Below, piece after piece: positions 13,051 through 18,785 of a DNA stretch of 64,000 nt (the stretch's first letter is position 1; the number at the start of each line of letters is the position of its first letter). Position numbers and translations under genes: made by a program. Below the pieces are notes generated by a model, which saw nothing but the letters and a program-made list of their open reading frames with translations, had not been told where the DNA came from and did not search any database. Source of the DNA: Alphaproteobacteria bacterium (GTDB taxonomy: Bacteria; Pseudomonadota; Alphaproteobacteria; UBA828); NCBI GenBank assembly GCA_963422645.2, contig CAXXVO010000007.1:224001-288000 (forward strand). Reading direction: 5' to 3'.

Positions 13051-13485
13051 TCACCCGAAAGGGTCGCGTGTCACCAACTCCGGGAAGAGGGAGAAATCTC
13101 GGTCGTGCGTGAGCAATGCGTCAACGCCATGCGCAATGCAAACCGCAGCGATGCGGGCATCGTGGACAACCCCGCCCACTATATTCGGGCGGTTCACAAT
13201 CCGCTCCAAAATGCCAATGAAGTCGTCGGTTTCGCTGATCATTTGCTGCGAGGGCGACCCTGCCCAAGCCATGAATTGGCGCCAGGCGTGATCGGGCGCG
13301 GTCGCCTCATCCTTCCAGACGCGGCGGTTGGTCACGACGCTCAGGAACTCGTAGCAGCAGGGCCACGGTATCGCCCAAGCCCGATCACTTTCGGCGAGTC
13401 CAACCATGACAGAATGAGCCGCCTCGCCCAGACGCGACTCTCGTCGGTGCGCGTAAACCAGAATGTTGGTATCCACCGCGATCAA
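13051..13485 (-). CDS. vapC: VapC PIN-domain ribonuclease toxin
   Basis: IAVDTNILVYA, YEFLSVVT, HDARIAA, LTHDRDF; TTG start overlaps the antitoxin stop. Confidence 0.9.
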   Translation of the reverse strand: MIAVDTNILVYAHRRESRLGEAAHSVMVGLAESDRAWAIPWPCCYEFLSVVTNRRVWKDEATAPDHAWRQFMAWAGSPSQQMISETDDFIGILERIVNRPNIVGGVVHDARIAAVCIAHGVDALLTHDRDFSLFPELVTRDPFG

Positions 13486-13549
13486 CGGATGCTGCCTGGA
13501 TCGCTGTAGATTAGCTCGCGCAACTCCGGCCAGGAATAGCGACCCATAG

Positions 13550-13800
13550 CGTTCACCGCTGCGGTGCCGCGGCTTTGTCGCGGAAGTAACCATGGGTTGA
13601 GTCTGCGACAGCGAAGGGCTGAAGTGGCGGCGGGTGGGGTGGCCGAGGCCGTAGATCCACTGGCGTGCGAGAGCACCCGTCCCATAGCTTGGCCCGAACC
13701 GCGATCGACTTCTGTCACTGATGGCGCGGGGGTCCCCGCGACCTCGTTCGAGAGATTGAGACTTCGATGCGGTTCCGCCCTACCCGCAGTTCAAGGAAAA
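13550..13800 (+). ncRNA. Putative IS110 bridge RNA in the non-coding left end (boundaries approximate)
   Basis: Segments match left target (13679-13687), right-target reverse complement (13692-13700) and left donor (13748-13754), interspersed with GC-rich hairpins. Confidence 0.65.
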
Positions 13801-13814
13801 CGGGAGGGCTTCCA

Positions 13815-15233
13815 ATGCCGAGCAAGAGGAAACGGACGCAGCGTCTAAAGGTGGTGAACCCGGATTGCGCGGGGATCGACATCGGAAAGGACCGGCACTT
13901 CGTGGCGGTCGATCCGGCTCGGTCCTCGGACCCGGTGCGGGAATTCGGGGCCTTCACCCGTGATCTGCAGGCGATGGCAAGGTGGCTTGCGTCCTGCGGG
14001 GTGACGAAGGTGGCAATGGAATCGACCTCGGTCTACTGGATCCCTGTCTACGAGGTTCTGGAACGGGCCGGCTTCCAGGTGATGCTTGTGCCACCCCGGA
14101 TGACGAAGCAGATCGGCGGACGCAAGAGCGACGTCCTGGATTGCCAGTGGATCTGGCAGCTCATGTCCTACGGCCTTCTACGGGGTGCCTTCCGCCCCGG
14201 TGATGCGATCTGCCCGCTGCGCTCCTACGTGCGCCAGGCGAAGCGGCTGATCGAGGATCGATCCCGCTGCGTGCAGCAAATGCAGAAGGCCCTTACCGAG
14301 ATGAACGTCCGGTTGGACTCGGTGATATCCGACATCACGGGCAAGACCGGTGAGCGCATTCTGCGGGCGATTGTTGCCGGTGAGCACGACCCGGAGCGGT
14401 TGGCGTCGTTGCGGGATTCGCGGATCAAGGCGAGTGCGGACACGCTTGCCGCAAGCCTGCAGGGCACGTGGCGTGATGAGCACCTGTTCGCCCTTGAGCA
14501 GACGATGCAGCGCTACGACTTTCTCGAACTGCAGATCGAGGACTGCGAAGCGCAGATCATGGCGGAGATCGAGCAGTTGACGCCGATGGACGATCCGCCG
14601 GACGGCGGCACGCCCGACGACGCCCCCCAAGGCTCCGGTACGGGGGCAAAGACCTCCCCGAACACCGCAGGCAAGACGCTCCCCGCACGGGAGAAGGCGA
14701 TGGCGCAGGCGCTAAGAGAGATGATGTGCGTCGACCTCACTGCAATCCCGACCATCGGCGTCACCACCGCTCTGGTGATCGCCTCGGAGATCGGCCCGGA
14801 CTTCTCCGCCTTTCCCTCGGCTCAACACTTCTGCTCGTGGCTGGGGGTGGCGCCGGGGACCAGGATCAGCGGCGGCAAACCCTTGCCGGGCCGGTCGCAC
14901 AAGGCGGTCAATCGGGTTGGACAAGCTCTGCGCATGTCAGCCATGTCGGCACGCAACAGCCAGACCTTCATCGGCACCAAGCACCGGGCGCTTCTCGCCC
15001 GAATGGATACAGCGATCGCGATCACTGCCACCGCACGGGAACTTGCTTGCCTGATCTACCTGATGGTCACTCAGGGCGAGGAATATGTGGAGAAGGGCAT
15101 GGAAGCCTACGAGCAGCGGCGCCAAAACCGACGTTACTCACGCCTCGACCGGCAGGCTCAGAGACTCGGCTACAAGCTGGTTCGGCTGAACAACAGCGAC
15201 GAAGAAACAAGAGTGACGCAATCAGCGGCTTAG
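13815..15233 (+). CDS. IS110-family DEDD recombinase/transposase
   Basis: AGIDIGK, VAMESTSVYW, RKSDVLD, IPTIG, SWLGVAPGTRISGGK (catalytic Ser region); GGGAGG RBS. Confidence 0.95.
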   Translation: MPSKRKRTQRLKVVNPDCAGIDIGKDRHFVAVDPARSSDPVREFGAFTRDLQAMARWLASCGVTKVAMESTSVYWIPVYEVLERAGFQVMLVPPRMTKQIGGRKSDVLDCQWIWQLMSYGLLRGAFRPGDAICPLRSYVRQAKRLIEDRSRCVQQMQKALTEMNVRLDSVISDITGKTGERILRAIVAGEHDPERLASLRDSRIKASADTLAASLQGTWRDEHLFALEQTMQRYDFLELQIEDCEAQIMAEIEQLTPMDDPPDGGTPDDAPQGSGTGAKTSPNTAGKTLPAREKAMAQALREMMCVDLTAIPTIGVTTALVIASEIGPDFSAFPSAQHFCSWLGVAPGTRISGGKPLPGRSHKAVNRVGQALRMSAMSARNSQTFIGTKHRALLARMDTAIAITATARELACLIYLMVTQGEEYVEKGMEAYEQRRQNRRYSRLDRQAQRLGYKLVRLNNSDEETRVTQSAA

Positions 15234-15651
15234 GCTTGTGTTACTCGAGAGGATCGGGCGCATCTGGGTCGCCTGCCGTTAGATCAGGAAGCGTGTACGT
15301 GCGGCGACGGCATCTTGGCTGGAGTACATGGCGAAGTCCGTCCTCTACCACGGCGCGCAGCGGTCGCCCCGTCGCCCTGGCATGCCGCTTGGCACGCGCC
15401 AGCAGTTCGTCGTGGATGTCTAATGTCGTTTTCATGGCCCCACATTCTCCAATTGCACCCGAATCCCGATCAAGAGACTTGCGCCTGGTCGGCTGCCCTC
15501 GATCGCCTATAGGCTTCACGGAAGTCCTTCATCTTGGCCGCACCGTTCGGAGATCTTCCTATTCGTTCTGTTGATGGAGTTGGGGAAGAGGCACTCCACG
15601 TAAGGGACCGACGCGATGACCATACGGTACGTCCTTGTATTACTTCACAGT

Positions 15652-18417
15652 TCAGGCCTTCGGCCAGCTTACCGTCTCCATCGAAATCTTCTTCGTCACG
15701 TGATTCAGTAAGAAAGTCGCGGTCTCGACAGGGTCCCGTTCACTTGTATCGCCGGAGAGCACCCGCACGGCGTCAAGCGCGACACCATCAGCTTCGCCGC
15801 CGGGCTCCAGGGTAGCGAGAAACTCAGCCGCTTGCTCCACATCCCCGGGTTCGGTACCCGATGTCACAACTGCCAGGGAGCCGGCGGCAAGGCGGATTGC
15901 GTCGACGACCGGCACGCGTGCCTCCTCGGCGAAGCCTCCGCCGGCCAGAAGCTTTGCCGCCTTGAGCTTGTGGTCGGCACGATCCGCAAGCGCCCGCGCA
16001 CGGAGCAGGTGTAAGCGCCCGTCCTCCTTCTCCTGCTCTCCGGGTAAGGGGAATATCTCTTCCATCGTCTCGGTTGGAGAGGGGATCAGCCCCGATTGAG
16101 CCAGCCGCATCATCGATTCATGCGTCGCGGGATCGATCACCGTGACCGCGAGCTCCGTGAGCCCGGCCAGTCGTTTCTCTTCCTCACCGATCCTGTCGGC
16201 CGGAAGGTCGATCACAGCCAGGATCGCCGTTCCGTTCTCATGGCCGAATATGCGGTTCAACGCACTTCCATGATCGGCGATCAGCCTGTCCCGCAGAGCT
16301 TCTGCCGGGGAAACCGACGGTGCGGCGGCTTCATCGGGTTCCGCAGTCGGGTCGGCGCCCAGCACGGCCTTCAAGCGTTCCATGAAGGCCGTCCTGCTGG
16401 TCGGCAGCGGAATGTTGGCGAGGTCGCCGCGCCGGTCGAGAACACCCTCGGCCAAAGTCCGCTTCGCATCCAGCAGCCCCAGCATCCGGTGCTCGATGGT
16501 GTCCTCGCTCACCAGGTTGAAAACCCTGACCGTGCGATGCTGATGCTTGCGCCAAGCCCGCGCGATCCGCTGATCGAGCTTGGCAGGGTTCCAGGGCTGG
16601 TCCATGTTGATCACCGTGTCGGCGACCTGGAGGTTGAGACCGACACCGCCGGCCTCGGAGGACAGGAACAGGCGGCAGTCCGGGTCCTCCCGGAACCTCT
16701 TCAGCTCCTCGCGCCGCCTGGCCTGGGGCACGCTTCCTGTGTGCCAGGCAAACTCGATGCCGGCCTCGGTCGCGAAGGAGCGGACCAACTCCAGCATCCG
16801 CACCCATTCGGAGAAGACGATGATCTTGCATTCCGGATCGTCGAGCAGGTCGGGGACCAGCTTCTCGATCTCGTCCATCTTGGGACAGGCATCGTCCTCC
16901 CCGCCGAGGATGTGGAGCGTGTCGCAGACCATGCGCATGCAGGCGAGATACCTTTGCAGCATCTCGAACTCATCGGCCGTCAGAGGCCGCCTCTCCGCGA
17001 GCGCCGCGAGCCTCCTGGCCAGATACTCGTAATCCTCGTAGACCTTGGTCTGCGCGTCGGTCATGGGAACGAAGAAGGTCTTGGATGAGAGAGGGGGAAG
17101 CTCGGTCTCCACCTCATCCTTGCGGCGGCGAAGCATGACCGTGGATATGCGGTCCGCGAGACCCTCGAGATTCCGGAACCCTTCCGGGCGTCCCCTGCCG
17201 TCGAGCTCGTAGTACTCTCGGTTGAACCGGAACAGCGGACCCAGCAGTTCCGGGTCGAGGAATTGAACGATCGAATAGATCTCGTCTATGCGGTTCTCGA
17301 TCGGGGTGCCGGTAAGTACAAATGCGTACCTGCTCTCCATTTTCTTGATCGCCGTCGCGGTCTTGGTCTGCCAGTTCTTGATGCGCTGCGCTTCGTCGAG
17401 GATCACCACATCGGGCGCCACGGCATCGATCATCGCGCGCCCGTCCGCAACCACCTGCTCGTAGTTGCAGAGGGTGAAGAACGAACCCTTCGCATAGGCG
17501 GCGCTCCGCGACAGGAAGTTACCGTAGACTGCGGTGGCTGGCAGGTCGGAGAAGCGGGCGATCTGCTCCTTCCATTCGGCCTTGAGCGAGGCGGGCGAGA
17601 CCACGAGCACCCGTTCGACCCCGCGCAACTCGCGCAAGAGCGTGCAGGCCGCAATCGCCTGCACGGTCTTGCCGAGGCCCATGTCGTCGGCCAAGAGCGC
17701 GCGCTCGCCGAAGGCCAGATGCAGCGCCCCCTCGATCTGGTAAGGCAGGAGCGGGAGCTTGAGCATGTCCATCGAGCGCCGGCTCGCCTTGAGGTCTTCC
17801 TCGAAGCGGGCGCGCTCAAGCCGGCGCTCGCTTGCGGACCGCAGGGCGGCGACCCAGTTCTCCAGTCTGTGCGAGACGCGCAAGGAGTGGGCGTTCTCCC
17901 GCGCGATATCTCTCAAGGTCGCAAGAGCCTCGCTCGATCCCTGATGCAGCTCATCGAAGTGGCGCTCCACGTCTGCAACGAGAACGGGGTTGTCGCGCGC
18001 GAGGTTCTCGGGCACCGACAGGCGCAGGTTTCGTCTGTCGCGCTCGTCGAGAAAGACCTCAATGCGGCTGCTCTCCTCGCGCGAACGGACGCGCCTGGTC
18101 AGGCGCCGCAGCGCGCCTTCGATATGCTTGCACGTGCCGAGGCGGCTGGTCCTGTGATCCGGGCACCCGCAGGAGTTGATGCGCTCCCGGATGCTGCGGA
18201 TTTCCACGGTGTAGGAATTACCGGTGGAGGACGTCACCGTGTAATCGCAGAAGGGGCCGTTCGCCTCATCCACGGGCCGGACTTCGGCGGTCTCGGTTCG
18301 ACCGCGCCACTGCCGCCGCTTGATCTCCTCTTCGTCAGTCGAATGCCAGCCCTGAAAGGTGGGGGCGGTCGCCCGCTTTCGACGCCGCTTTCCCTGGTCT
18401 GCACGTTTCCCGGACAT
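15652..18417 (-). CDS. SWIM zinc-finger + SNF2-family helicase with HEPN-like C-terminal region
   Basis: CGCPD...CKH (SWIM); LADDMGLGKT, LDEAQRIKN, LTGTPIEN, GGVGLNLQ, QRIARAWR. Confidence 0.9.
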   Translation of the reverse strand: MSGKRADQGKRRRKRATAPTFQGWHSTDEEEIKRRQWRGRTETAEVRPVDEANGPFCDYTVTSSTGNSYTVEIRSIRERINSCGCPDHRTSRLGTCKHIEGALRRLTRRVRSREESSRIEVFLDERDRRNLRLSVPENLARDNPVLVADVERHFDELHQGSSEALATLRDIARENAHSLRVSHRLENWVAALRSASERRLERARFEEDLKASRRSMDMLKLPLLPYQIEGALHLAFGERALLADDMGLGKTVQAIAACTLLRELRGVERVLVVSPASLKAEWKEQIARFSDLPATAVYGNFLSRSAAYAKGSFFTLCNYEQVVADGRAMIDAVAPDVVILDEAQRIKNWQTKTATAIKKMESRYAFVLTGTPIENRIDEIYSIVQFLDPELLGPLFRFNREYYELDGRGRPEGFRNLEGLADRISTVMLRRRKDEVETELPPLSSKTFFVPMTDAQTKVYEDYEYLARRLAALAERRPLTADEFEMLQRYLACMRMVCDTLHILGGEDDACPKMDEIEKLVPDLLDDPECKIIVFSEWVRMLELVRSFATEAGIEFAWHTGSVPQARRREELKRFREDPDCRLFLSSEAGGVGLNLQVADTVINMDQPWNPAKLDQRIARAWRKHQHRTVRVFNLVSEDTIEHRMLGLLDAKRTLAEGVLDRRGDLANIPLPTSRTAFMERLKAVLGADPTAEPDEAAAPSVSPAEALRDRLIADHGSALNRIFGHENGTAILAVIDLPADRIGEEEKRLAGLTELAVTVIDPATHESMMRLAQSGLIPSPTETMEEIFPLPGEQEKEDGRLHLLRARALADRADHKLKAAKLLAGGGFAEEARVPVVDAIRLAAGSLAVVTSGTEPGDVEQAAEFLATLEPGGEADGVALDAVRVLSGDTSERDPVETATFLLNHVTKKISMETVSWPKA

Positions 18418-18785
18418 GGCTGCGCTCTTACCCCGAATATGCAGTCGCTCTCCGCACCGGCGCGACGGCGCCAAGCATAGCCTGTGTCCGCTGATGCGTC
18501 AGGCTGAGCCCCCACGGATTGCCTGCGGCAACGCCGCACGCGCCACGTTCGACTGCATGTACAACGACATCGTCATGAAGACGATGATGGTGGCCAAGCG
18601 CCGGGTGCGCCCGAACTCGGCGAAGCCGGTGACGAACATGGAGGGGCGTTGGGTCGAGAGGCGGACGCGCCGAGCAAAGCGAGCCAACGTTCACCCCGCC
18701 CGCACTTGCCGAAGAAGGAGCGTGTGGGCCATTGGCCGGATGCGATCCATGCCGGCGGCTGATCGTGGCGGCGGCGCACTCGTCG

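What the first reader, a model, noticed from the sequence alone, without database searches (positions are those of the whole stretch)
13541..15260. IS110 element whose non-coding end spells out its own target and donor sites (readable bridge RNA, compact guide layout)
Seen: the reconstructed target is GACCCAT-AG-GATCGGGC and the circle junction is ACTCGAG-AG-CGTTCAC. The ~265-nt left end contains GTCCCATAG (13679-13687, 8/9 to the left target including the core), then 4 nt later GCCCGAACC (13692-13700, 8/9 to the reverse complement of the right target), and TCGAGAG (13748-13754, 7/7 to the left donor including the core). Established: IS110 elements such as IS621 encode a bridge RNA with left guides identical to the top strand and right guides reverse-complementary. 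Inference: this is a programmable bridge recombinase with an AG core, and its target guides are separated by only CTTG rather than by a hairpin, which would be a different loop architecture. I could not find a clean right-donor guide.
Basis: partly seen in the sequence, partly recalled or inferred. Interest (0 to 1): 0.85.

Follow-up and report, generated by a model that had tools for sequence, protein, structure and literature searches.

The report
Bridge-RNA insertion sequence, guides in reverse order
This is an intact RNA-guided IS110-family jumping gene whose leader spells out its own target and its own end, but the supposed compact guide layout is wrong: its two target guides lie on either side of a hairpin, in the opposite order to the textbook element IS621.

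Summary
The element is real: a 1702-bp IS110-family insertion sequence (13550-15251) with AG at both junctions, inserted in a vapB antitoxin gene. Empty sites in five related genomes and one metagenome contig confirm the ends.

Across 74 distinct relatives, the left target guide (13681-13687) and left donor guide (13748-13754) change together with each element's left flank and right end.

It is conserved among relatives with unrelated right flanks (mean 2.12 of 9 matches; this window's 8 of 9 is an outlier). It forms the strands of two covarying stems.

A short right target guide lies upstream at 13654-13658. It is 56% complementary to right flanks, against 21-28% in shifted registers.

The RNA therefore has the usual two internal loops, but with the order right guide, hairpin, left guide. 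That is the reverse of IS621 and matches IS1111 seekRNAs, although the RNA sits upstream of the transposase.

Pseudomonas relatives match published features of ISPpu9 (AG core). No right donor guide was found, and expression was not shown.

The parts
13550..15251 (+). IS110-family insertion sequence, 1702 bp. It can equally be written 13548-15249, because one AG belongs to the target and one to the element.
   Evidence: Empty sites in L167-L171. An X6 contig joins 13547 to 15250. Similarity to paralogues starts at 13548.
13548..13549 (+). Core dinucleotide AG at the left junction.
   Evidence: AG stands next to the left end at 105 of 125 related left-end matches.
15250..15251 (+). Core dinucleotide AG at the right junction.
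13586..13590 (+). Left-end motif GTAAC, the reverse complement of the right-end subterminal GTTAC. It works like a short subterminal inverted repeat, and is asymmetric: about +37 from the left end, but 7 nt from the right end.
   Evidence: Five variant pairs change together across relatives: GTTAC, GTTTG, GTTTC, GTTCT and GTTAG.
13633..13641 (+). P1, 5' strand of the stem that encloses both loops. It pairs with 13776-13784.
   Evidence: Duplex folding of 74 relatives gives a mean of -13.8 kcal/mol against -8.7 for shuffled 3' strands, with different sequences pairing in different clades.
13647..13650 (+). H1, 5' strand of the stem closing the target-binding loop. It pairs with 13691-13694.
   Evidence: 4 pairs, 100% paired, 3 with compensatory changes.
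13654..13658 (+). Proposed right target guide: GATC is complementary to right flank +1..+4, and C13658 pairs with the G of the core. It lies on the 5' side of the target loop.
   Evidence: 165 of 296 positions are Watson-Crick against 21-28% in shifted registers, and 0 of 10000 shuffles reach this value. It gives the top signals in an unbiased column scan. It matches 4/4 in this window.
13661..13679 (+). H2, the inner hairpin of the target loop.
   Evidence: 5 pairs, 99.5% paired; the U-G pair is present in 73 of 74.
13681..13687 (+). Left target guide: CCCAT plus AG, identical to the left flank plus core. It lies on the 3' side of the target loop. T13680 does not match the flank.
   Evidence: Eight different guide sequences each match their own left flank when the left end is located independently of the guide. 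105 of 125 have exactly one upstream match, at family-typical distances.
13691..13694 (+). H1, 3' strand.
13696..13702 (+). H3, 5' strand of the stem closing the donor-binding loop.
   Evidence: 7 pairs, 98.4% paired, 6 with compensatory changes.
13720..13745 (+). H4, the inner hairpin of the donor loop.
   Evidence: 10 pairs, 95.7% paired, 7 with compensatory changes.
13748..13754 (+). Left donor guide: TCGAG plus AG, identical to the right end 15245-15251. It lies on the 3' side of the donor loop.
   Evidence: The right-end termini of relatives change with their own guide, in at least 9 variants such as CAAG, CGAG, CGGG, TGAG, ATGAG, ATAAG, ATGGG, ATGAA and ATAGG.
13769..13784 (+). 3' strands of H3 (13769-13775) and P1 (13776-13784).
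13815..15233 (+). Transposase/recombinase gene, 472 aa, intact.
   Evidence: Pfam DEDD_Tnp_IS110 and Transposase_20. NCBIfam NF033542 at 281.9 bits. IS621 structure 8wt6 at E = 8e-6.
15240..15249 (+). Right-end terminus: subterminal GTTAC (15240-15244) followed by the left donor TCGAG (15245-15249).
15252..15435 (-). The interrupted host gene, a vapB antitoxin. It loses its C-terminal tail to the insertion.
   Evidence: Pfam VapB_antitoxin. Uninterrupted orthologous sites.
13051..13488 (-). The vapC (PIN domain) toxin gene, downstream of the insertion.
   Evidence: Pfam PIN. The start codon is my own reading.

Best explanation
The region 13550-15251 is an intact member of the IS110 family of RNA-guided insertion sequences. 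It belongs to the long-transposase clade that includes Pseudomonas ISPpu9-like elements and uses an AG core.

Its 265-nt left end encodes, on the + strand, a bridge RNA of about 150 nt (roughly 13633-13784). An outer stem (P1) encloses two stem-loops, each with an internal loop.

In the first loop, the 3' side (CCCAT-AG, 13681-13687) has the sequence of the left target plus core, so it would pair with the bottom strand. The 5' side (GATC-C, 13654-13658) is complementary to the core G plus the first four bases of the right target.

In the second loop, the 3' side (TCGAG-AG, 13748-13754) has the sequence of the element's right end plus core.

By analogy with IS621, the recombinase-RNA complex would bring the excised circle (right end, AG, left end) and the target (CCCAT-AG-GATC) together and exchange strands at AG. 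That would have inserted the element into vapB.

Shown here: the ends and the empty site, the stems, and the covariation of three guides with DNA. Inferred: that the RNA is made, is bound by the protein, and directs recombination.

Relative to IS621, the guides in both loops are in reverse order (right guide, hairpin, left guide) and the core is AG rather than CT. In other words, the recombination module is flipped with respect to the element's genes.

Recognition looks dominated by the left half-site. Right-flank matching is statistical and can be lax.
For: Protein: Pfam and NCBIfam hits over the full length.

Ends: empty sites in L167-L171 and the X6 contig that skips exactly 1702 bases, AG..AG.

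A second copy about 97% identical sits elsewhere in X6. Its contigs match the window from 13545 and up to 15255, that is 3 nt plus AG on the left and 4 nt (GATC) on the right beyond the element.

LTG: eight different guide sequences each match their own flank when the left end is located by a terminal motif and not by the guide. 105 of 125 left-end hits have exactly one upstream match, 17 have none and 3 have several.

LDG: each relative's right-end terminus follows its own guide.

RTG: 165 of 296 Watson-Crick positions over 74 combinations. 0 of 10000 shuffles reach this (z = 9.6; one value per element type, 48 types, z = 8.4). The register control gives 56% at shift 0 against 21-28% at shifts of -3 to +3, and the signal holds within both clades at positions +1 and +3. 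Unbiased scans place the three best signals at 13657, 13655 and 13656 in antiparallel register.

Structure: 26 pairs are 97.8% paired against 34-44% when slid. 18 pairs have compensatory changes, and 0 of 500 shuffles reach any measure.

Strand: the many G-U pairs fit the + strand only. Examples are U-G in 73 of 74 and G-U in 48 of 74.

Literature for the mechanism and order: IS621 TBL is stem, LTG A50-U58, stem loop, RTG G77-G80, with a CT core (PMC11208158, sections 7-8 passages). In IS1111 seekRNAs the top-strand complement comes first (PMC11187229 passages). ISPpu9 has an AG direct repeat, a mapped tnp 5'-UTR of 244 nt starting 84 nt into the element, and a GCCC-N4-GGGC palindrome in its left end (PMC8450116 and PMC12288879 passages). 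The Pseudomonas loci in my alignment have AG, 328 nt from core to ATG, and that palindrome.
Against: No right donor guide was found. No alignment column covaries with the first bases of the left end, and no consistent complementary 5-mer appears.

Right-flank matching is weak for several elements. The multi-copy element of G011/L007-L010 (guide block CCTT) has 12 copies with a readable right flank, in 11 distinct sites with no right-flank consensus. Position +4 is not significant on its own.

Relatives share ancestry and often share targets, so shuffles overstate significance.

Expression is not shown. Only short contigs of relatives lie on the left end in an RNA library, and DNA can be present in such libraries.

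No sigma-70-like promoter was found. The single-sequence fold is not exceptional (z = -1.75). No Rfam family matched.

The element is single-copy in its own genome.

Whether the X6 second copy carries the same guide letters could not be read from the output.
Confidence: 0.75

Rival explanations
1. The target guides are GTCCCATAG and GCCCGAACC, separated only by CTTG, which would be a compact loop without an intervening hairpin.
For: In this window the block is complementary to core G plus right flank at 8 of 9 positions. By my arithmetic such a match is expected only about 0.03 times in 265 nt.
Against: The same or nearly the same block occurs in relatives with unrelated right flanks. GCCCGAACC occurs in 14 and GTCCGAACC in 10 of the 74 combinations. 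The mean match is 2.12 of 9, for example 3, 1, 3 and 2 in L002, L004, L007 and L044.

Its bases pair in stems H1 and H3 with compensatory changes: GGCC/GGCC becomes GATC/GATC, GGTC/GACC or AGCC/GGCT, and GAACCGC/GCGGTTC becomes GCACGGT/ACCGTGT.

No right-flank covariation falls in 13692-13699. The only listed signal in the block is 13700 with right-flank position +5, a weak one (excess 0.14).
Confidence: 0.03
2. Only the left half-sites are read by RNA (LTG and LDG). The apparent right target guide is a by-product of shared ancestry and shared repeat targets. The right side would be chosen by protein, by DNA structure, or not at all.
For: There is no right-flank consensus among the 11 distinct sites of the G011/L007-L010 element. 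Copies insert into the guide-encoding DNA of other copies, although the right flank there does not fit the guide. No right donor guide was found. Half-match recombination is reported for IS110 elements (abstract of 10.64898/2026.08.31.748434 in the listing; passages of 10.64898/2026.08.14.744561).
Against: The register-specific excess (56% against 21-28%) appears in both clades. Ten perfect 4/4 matches carry nine different sequences: GATC, CACG, AGAG, TAGG, TGAG, ACAC and TCTG twice, plus CGCG and one further AGAG row (L196, a tandem-array copy that does not enter the set). The second X6 copy shares GATC.
Confidence: 0.15
3. The functional guide RNA is an antisense transcript of the left end, like the abundant and stable Asr9 of ISPpu9, and not the sense leader.
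For: In ISPpu9 the antisense sRNA is far more abundant and stable than the tnp mRNA, and raising its level increases transposition about threefold (PMC8450116 passages).
Against: The conserved stems contain many G-U pairs, which would be A-C mismatches on the other strand. A-C cells are few, 6 and 8 in two pairs. The authors themselves place the bridge RNA in the sense 5'-UTR (PMC12288879 discussion).
Confidence: 0.04

Closest known systems
IS621 bridge RNA system (IS110 group; Durrant et al. 2024 PMC11208160; Hiraizumi et al. 2024 PMC11208158)
   Same: Both have a DEDD recombinase with a Transposase_20 domain. Both have a long non-coding left end upstream of the gene and a 2-nt core at both junctions without real duplication. 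Both RNAs have two stem-loops with internal loops. In both, one guide is identical to left flank plus core, one is complementary to the right flank, and a donor guide is identical to right end plus core.
   Different: The core is AG, not CT. In both loops the left guide is on the 3' side and the right guide on the 5' side, whereas IS621 runs stem, LTG, stem loop, RTG. The left guide is 5+2 nt and the right guide about 4+1 nt. The recombinase is 472 aa against 326 aa and only distantly alike (E = 8e-6). An outer stem encloses both loops. No right donor guide was recognised. No junction promoter is evident.
ISPpu9 of Pseudomonas putida KT2440 (PMC8450116, PMC12288879)
   Same: Both have an AG dinucleotide at both ends and are classed in the IS110 group. 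Both have a long structured leader upstream of tnp. The Pseudomonas loci in my alignment (L160, L163, L165 and others, 52-57% protein identity to the window) show AG, 328 nt from core to ATG, and the GCCC-N4-GGGC palindrome at the left end. All three match the published description. They share the same RNA stems as the window.
   Different: The targets differ: REP sequences in Pseudomonas, a vapB gene here. The left end is 265 nt here against 328 nt. [quoted passage not shown] In the passages and sections I read, those papers do not map the guides. I did not have the ISPpu9 sequence itself, so the identification rests on described features.
IS1111-family seekRNAs (Siddiquee et al. 2024 PMC11187229)
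   Same: The guide order is the same: the segment pairing with the top strand lies 5' of the segment matching the top strand.
   Different: There the RNA is downstream of tnp, the transposases are 330-350 aa, and 11-13-bp subterminal inverted repeats lie 7 and 3 bp from the ends. Here the RNA is upstream, the protein is 472 aa, and only a 5-6-bp complementarity exists, with its left partner about 37 nt inside the element.

Membership tests
IS110 family (DEDD recombinase insertion sequences) | A recombinase with a DEDD/RuvC-like N-terminal domain and a Transposase_20 C-terminal domain. | tested here: met
   PF01548 at E = 2.7e-23 and PF02371 at E = 4.2e-13. NF033542 at 281.9 bits against a cut-off of 140.
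IS110 family (DEDD recombinase insertion sequences) | Site-specific insertion with a shared core dinucleotide at both junctions and a single copy in the empty site. | tested here: met
   Empty sites in L167-L171. An X6 contig skips 1702 bases, AG..AG.
IS110 family (DEDD recombinase insertion sequences) | A circular excision intermediate with abutted ends. | not testable with these tools
   No circle-junction contig was seen in the four runs laid. Contigs cannot show absence.
IS110 group (as opposed to the IS1111 group) | The long non-coding region lies upstream of tnp, with no long subterminal inverted repeats. | tested here: met
   265 nt lie upstream and 18 nt downstream of the gene. There is only a 5-6-bp complementarity between the right end and the left end.
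IS1111 group | 11-13-bp subterminal inverted repeats a few bp from both ends, with the non-coding RNA downstream of tnp. | tested here: not met
   The criteria come from PMC11187229 passages.
Bridge RNA, IS621 type | A structured RNA with two stem-loops bearing internal loops, supported by covariation. | tested here: met
   26 pairs, 97.8% paired, 18 with compensatory changes. P1 is supported separately.
Bridge RNA, IS621 type | Loop segments that covary with left target plus core and with left donor plus core. | tested here: met
Bridge RNA, IS621 type | A loop segment complementary to the right target. | tested here: met
   The support is statistical across 74 combinations. It matches 4/4 in the window. 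It is weak for some elements.
Bridge RNA, IS621 type | A loop segment complementary to the right donor. | tested here: inconclusive
   No covarying column and no consistent 5-mer were found.
Bridge RNA, IS621 type | Order stem, left guide, stem loop, right guide, with a CT core. | tested here: not met
   The right guide is at 13654-13658, the hairpin at 13661-13679 and the left guide at 13681-13687. The core is AG. The IS621 order comes from PMC11208158.
Bridge RNA, IS621 type | The RNA is expressed and bound by the recombinase. | not testable with these tools
   Only short contigs of relatives in one RNA library lie on the left end.
ISPpu9-like clade | An AG core, a long transposase, and a structured leader holding the guide RNA. 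| tested here: met
   AG is present here and family-wide. The Pseudomonas members of the alignment match three published ISPpu9 features. The ISPpu9 sequence itself was not compared.

The most novel reading that the evidence does not exclude
The ISPpu9-like long-transposase clade represents a third configuration of RNA-guided IS110 recombination. The guide RNA sits upstream of the gene, as in IS621, but both loops carry their guides in the IS1111 order and the core is AG. The whole recombination module is therefore inverted relative to the element's genes, and the first strand exchange would fall on the strand antisense to the transposase.

Targeting is dominated by a 5+2-nt left half-site, with a short and forgiving right guide. 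One consequence is that elements insert into the guide-encoding DNA of their own copies and build nested and tandem arrays.
Probability: 0.5. Interest if true: 0.55.

Novelty: new variant of a known kind. Interest (0 to 1): 0.45.

Why it matters
Bridge recombinases are being developed as programmable genome-writing tools, and nearly all mechanistic work rests on IS621 and its close relatives.

A clade with the guides permuted within each loop, a different core and very short guides bears on two questions. One is which features of the RNA scaffold are essential. The other is how the polarity of strand exchange relates to the element.

The analysis also gives the experimentally tractable ISPpu9 a testable guide map.

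For this genome the practical meaning is modest: an ordinary, probably recently mobile insertion sequence has split a vapBC toxin-antitoxin operon.

Tried and rejected
Rfam 15 scan of 13300-15500 at E up to 10: only four chance-level hits and no bridge RNA family. I do not know whether Rfam holds such a family.

Sigma-70 promoter and terminator scan of 13400-15400: 0 sites of either kind.

Single-sequence fold of the whole left end: z = -1.75, with 11 of 200 shuffles as good, and the minimum-energy fold differs from the covariation-supported one. I did not use it.

Search for a right donor guide. The column scan against the first 8 bases of the left end gave only clade-level signals. Reverse-complement 5-mers showed no consistent place. 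Comparing by eye the 5' side of the donor loop with the left-end starts of 17 alpha-clade elements showed no covariation.

A handshake-like position: the base after the LTG core (13688) equals the first base of the left end in 65% of 63 elements against 35% expected. Clade structure could explain this, so I leave it as a hint.

nhmmer with my left-end profile on a Citrobacter plasmid relative at 42.7% protein identity (L175) gave no hit.

ISPpu10 was considered as a relative and rejected. It is 1.3 kb with a CT core (10.64898/2026.03.19.712850, section 5 and passages).

Sequencing runs: RNA run X19 has no contig on 13450-14025, and X20 has only short contigs of 90-95% relatives on the left end. 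This says nothing about expression of this element. No circle-junction contig was seen.

Rows dropped before the right-guide count:
- 131 full-length left-end hits were the starting set.
- 125 of them had recognisable guide frames; the 6 dropped were L104 and five hits in L051-L054.
- 101 of those had exactly one right-end candidate and at least 8 nt of flank.
- Duplicates and flanks that are the left end of a tandem copy were removed, leaving 74.

Supplementary files and figures of all papers were not visible. Extended Data Fig. 10c of PMC11208160 (ISPpu10, ISAar29, ISHne5) and Fig. S12 of 10.64898/2026.10.21.760802 (86 covariance models) may already show this layout.

My statement that the reversed order is not in print for left-end bridge RNAs rests on searches and on the passages read.

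Full report
WHAT IS THERE. The + strand of 13815-15233 encodes a 472-aa protein with the two Pfam domains of IS110-family recombinases (PF01548 and PF02371). It also gives a full-length match to NCBIfam NF033542, 'IS110 family RNA-guided transposase', at 281.9 bits. It is only distantly like the solved IS621 recombinase (8wt6, E = 8e-6). On the minus strand the flanks encode a VapB antitoxin (right flank) and a PIN-domain VapC (left flank).

ENDS. In five genomes of the same genus the orthologous vapBC locus is uninterrupted. The sequence homologous to 13300-13545 runs straight into the sequence homologous to 15251 onward, with room for one dinucleotide only. In DNA run X6 a contig with 3 differences over about 200 bases joins 13547 to 15250. 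It skips 1702 bases whose ends are AG..AG.

In its own genome the element is single-copy. There are three full-length copies of a paralogue at 76-77% identity (one of them frameshifted) and two fragments.

RELATIVES. Scans of genome and metagenome collections with a two-protein alignment gave 79 and 80 loci. A profile of the left-end core found 172 hits. Of these, 131 were full-length and 74 were distinct. They fall into an alpha-proteobacterial clade (68-77% protein identity) and a gamma-proteobacterial clade (52-60%).

LEFT TARGET GUIDE: CONFIRMED. All relatives share a fixed frame..CCCG, then six variable bases, then AG, then C.TGG.CCG. When the left end is located by its own conserved terminal motif, the five bases before AG in the frame equal the five bases of the left flank for eight different guides: CCCAT, TGTTA, TTGGA, ATGAC, CTTGA, TCATG and others. 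Over all hits, 105 of 125 have exactly one such match upstream, at clade-typical distances and followed by the conserved left-end start. 17 have none and 3 have several.

The base before the five (T13680 here) matches the flank in only 13% of 70 cases. G13679 pairs within the hairpin. The working guide is therefore 13681-13687.

LEFT DONOR GUIDE: CONFIRMED. The segment aligned with 13748-13754 changes in step with each element's right-end terminus, in at least nine variants.

GCCCGAACC or a near-identical block is present in relatives whose right flanks are unrelated. The mean complementarity to core G plus eight flank bases is 2.12 of 9 over 74 combinations, and the window's 8 of 9 is the outlier.

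RNAalifold on the 74-sequence alignment pairs 13647-13650 with 13691-13694 and 13696-13702 with 13769-13775. Pair counting agrees. Overall, 26 pairs are 97.8% paired against 34-44% when the partners are slid. 18 pairs have changes on both sides, and 0 of 500 shuffles reach any of the five measures. The block is therefore two stem strands.

THE RIGHT TARGET GUIDE I PROPOSE. The only other hypervariable block in the core lies just 5' of a conserved CA.TGG. Its four bases (GATC, 13654-13657) are the reverse complement of the right flank here, and C13658 can pair with the G of the core.

Over 74 distinct combinations of guide and flank, 165 of 296 positions are Watson-Crick. No shuffle out of 10000 reaches that (z = 9.6; 48 element types taken once each, z = 8.4). 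Sliding the register by 1-3 bases either way drops the figure to 21-28%. Blind scans of every column against every flank position put the three strongest signals at 13657/+1, 13655/+3 and 13656/+2.

Ten matches are perfect, carrying nine different sequences; one of them (L196) is a tandem-array copy outside the set. In X6, contigs of a second copy about 97% identical, sitting elsewhere, agree with the window from 13545 and up to 15255. That is three bases plus AG on the left and GATC on the right. I could not read whether its guides are unchanged.

Against this: position +4 alone is not significant. The G011/L007-L010 element has 12 copies with a readable right flank, in 11 distinct sites, and shows no right-flank consensus. 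Relatedness among the elements also inflates shuffle statistics.

ARCHITECTURE. An outer stem (13633-13641 with 13776-13784) encloses two loops.

The target loop runs: stem H1; 5' side containing the right guide; hairpin H2; 3' side containing the left guide; stem H1.

The donor loop runs: stem H3; 5' side 13703-13719; hairpin H4; 3' side containing the left donor guide; stem H3.

The many G-U pairs fit the + strand only.

In IS621 the order is stem, LTG (A50-U58), stem loop, RTG (G77-G80), and the core is CT (PMC11208158, passages of sections 7-8; PMC11208160, passages). Here both loops are reversed and the core is AG. These two facts are one inversion. Read on the other strand, the core is CT and the guide order is that of IS621, but the genes then point the other way.

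Siddiquee et al. report this order (top-strand complement first) for IS1111 seekRNAs, which lie downstream of tnp. They report the opposite order for the upstream RNA of ISEc21 (PMC11187229, passages).

CLOSEST CHARACTERISED RELATIVE. ISPpu9 is described as an IS110-group element with an invariant AG at both ends. It has a tnp 5'-UTR of 244 nt starting 84 nt into the element, and a GCCC-N4-GGGC palindrome near the left end (PMC8450116 passages; PMC12288879 passages and discussion). The Pseudomonas loci in my alignment have AG, 328 nt from core to ATG, and that palindrome. I infer they are ISPpu9 or close kin. In what I read, those papers do not map the guides.

A 2026 preprint reports 86 covariance models of bridge RNAs, many of which deviate from IS621. 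Its text does not mention guide order (10.64898/2026.10.21.760802, section 2.4).

UNRESOLVED. There is no right donor guide. No promoter was found. No evidence of expression was obtained.

A 5-nt motif of the right end (15240-15244) has its reverse complement about 37 nt inside the left end (13586-13590), and five variant pairs change together. In ISPpu9 this place lies upstream of the mapped transcription start. It is therefore more likely a DNA-level subterminal repeat than an RNA helix. Its role is unknown.

VERDICT. The element is an ordinary, intact bridge-RNA insertion sequence. The claimed compact layout is an artefact of one chance match to a stem. The real departure from IS621 is the reversed order of guides together with the AG core, and it is shared by a whole clade.

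Noticed in passing
window 13051-13540 and 15252-15435 (minus strand): The insertion splits a vapBC toxin-antitoxin operon. vapB loses its C-terminal tail, about 21 codons by my reading of the flanks. vapC is separated from vapB by 1.7 kb.
   Followed up: partly
L002, L003, L004 (own genome, contigs C5, C18, C3); L005 and L006 are fragments: A paralogous element at 76-77% identity with a different guide (TGTTA-AG) sits three times at sites reading TGTTGTTA-AG followed by C[GA][TC]G...TTGACCCC. The L002 copy has a frameshifted recombinase gene. In L002 the next gene downstream looks like an IS21-type istA by its translation; that name is recalled and was not tested.
   Followed up: partly
L018, L022, L025, L029, L040 and more than 14 other loci of record OZ253557.1: Copies of one element are inserted into the guide-encoding DNA of other copies. 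The junctions read ..CCCGATGTTA-AG|left end, and right end-AG|CCTGGTCCGAACC. Many copies also stand head to tail with a single AG between them. The DNA that encodes the left target guide is itself a target.
   Followed up: partly
window 13586-13590 and 15240-15244; relatives: A right-end subterminal 5-mer and a left-end motif about 37 nt inside the element are reverse complements. They covary in five variants.
   Followed up: partly
window 13680 against flank position -6: The base just 5' of the five-base left guide equals the flank in only 13% of 70 cases, which is below chance. It looks as if pairing there were avoided.
   Followed up: no
L007-L010, L178-L205 (genome G011): A multi-copy element with guide TTGGA-AG has 12 copies with a readable right flank, in 11 distinct sites. 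They have a conserved left half-site and no right-flank consensus, which suggests half-site insertion.
   Followed up: partly
window 15652-18474 (minus strand): A 940-aa ORF next to the TA locus. By eye, its translation carries a SWIM-like zinc-finger motif and SNF2-type helicase motifs. These names are recalled and were not tested.
   Followed up: no
L175 (plasmid NZ_CP150625.1, Citrobacter freundii) and other Enterobacterales plasmids: An IS110-family gene at 42.7% protein identity is widespread on plasmids (537 records matched at under 60% identity). Its upstream region shows a similar frame, CCCCG, A-rich block, CATGGTTC, but it is not detected by my profile.
   Followed up: no
run X20, contigs on 13545-13922, 13661-13730 and 13713-13776: Short contigs of 90-95% relatives of the left end occur in a size-fractionated metatranscriptome library. 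The short ones have higher depth than the long one. This is a weak hint that related leaders are transcribed.
   Followed up: no
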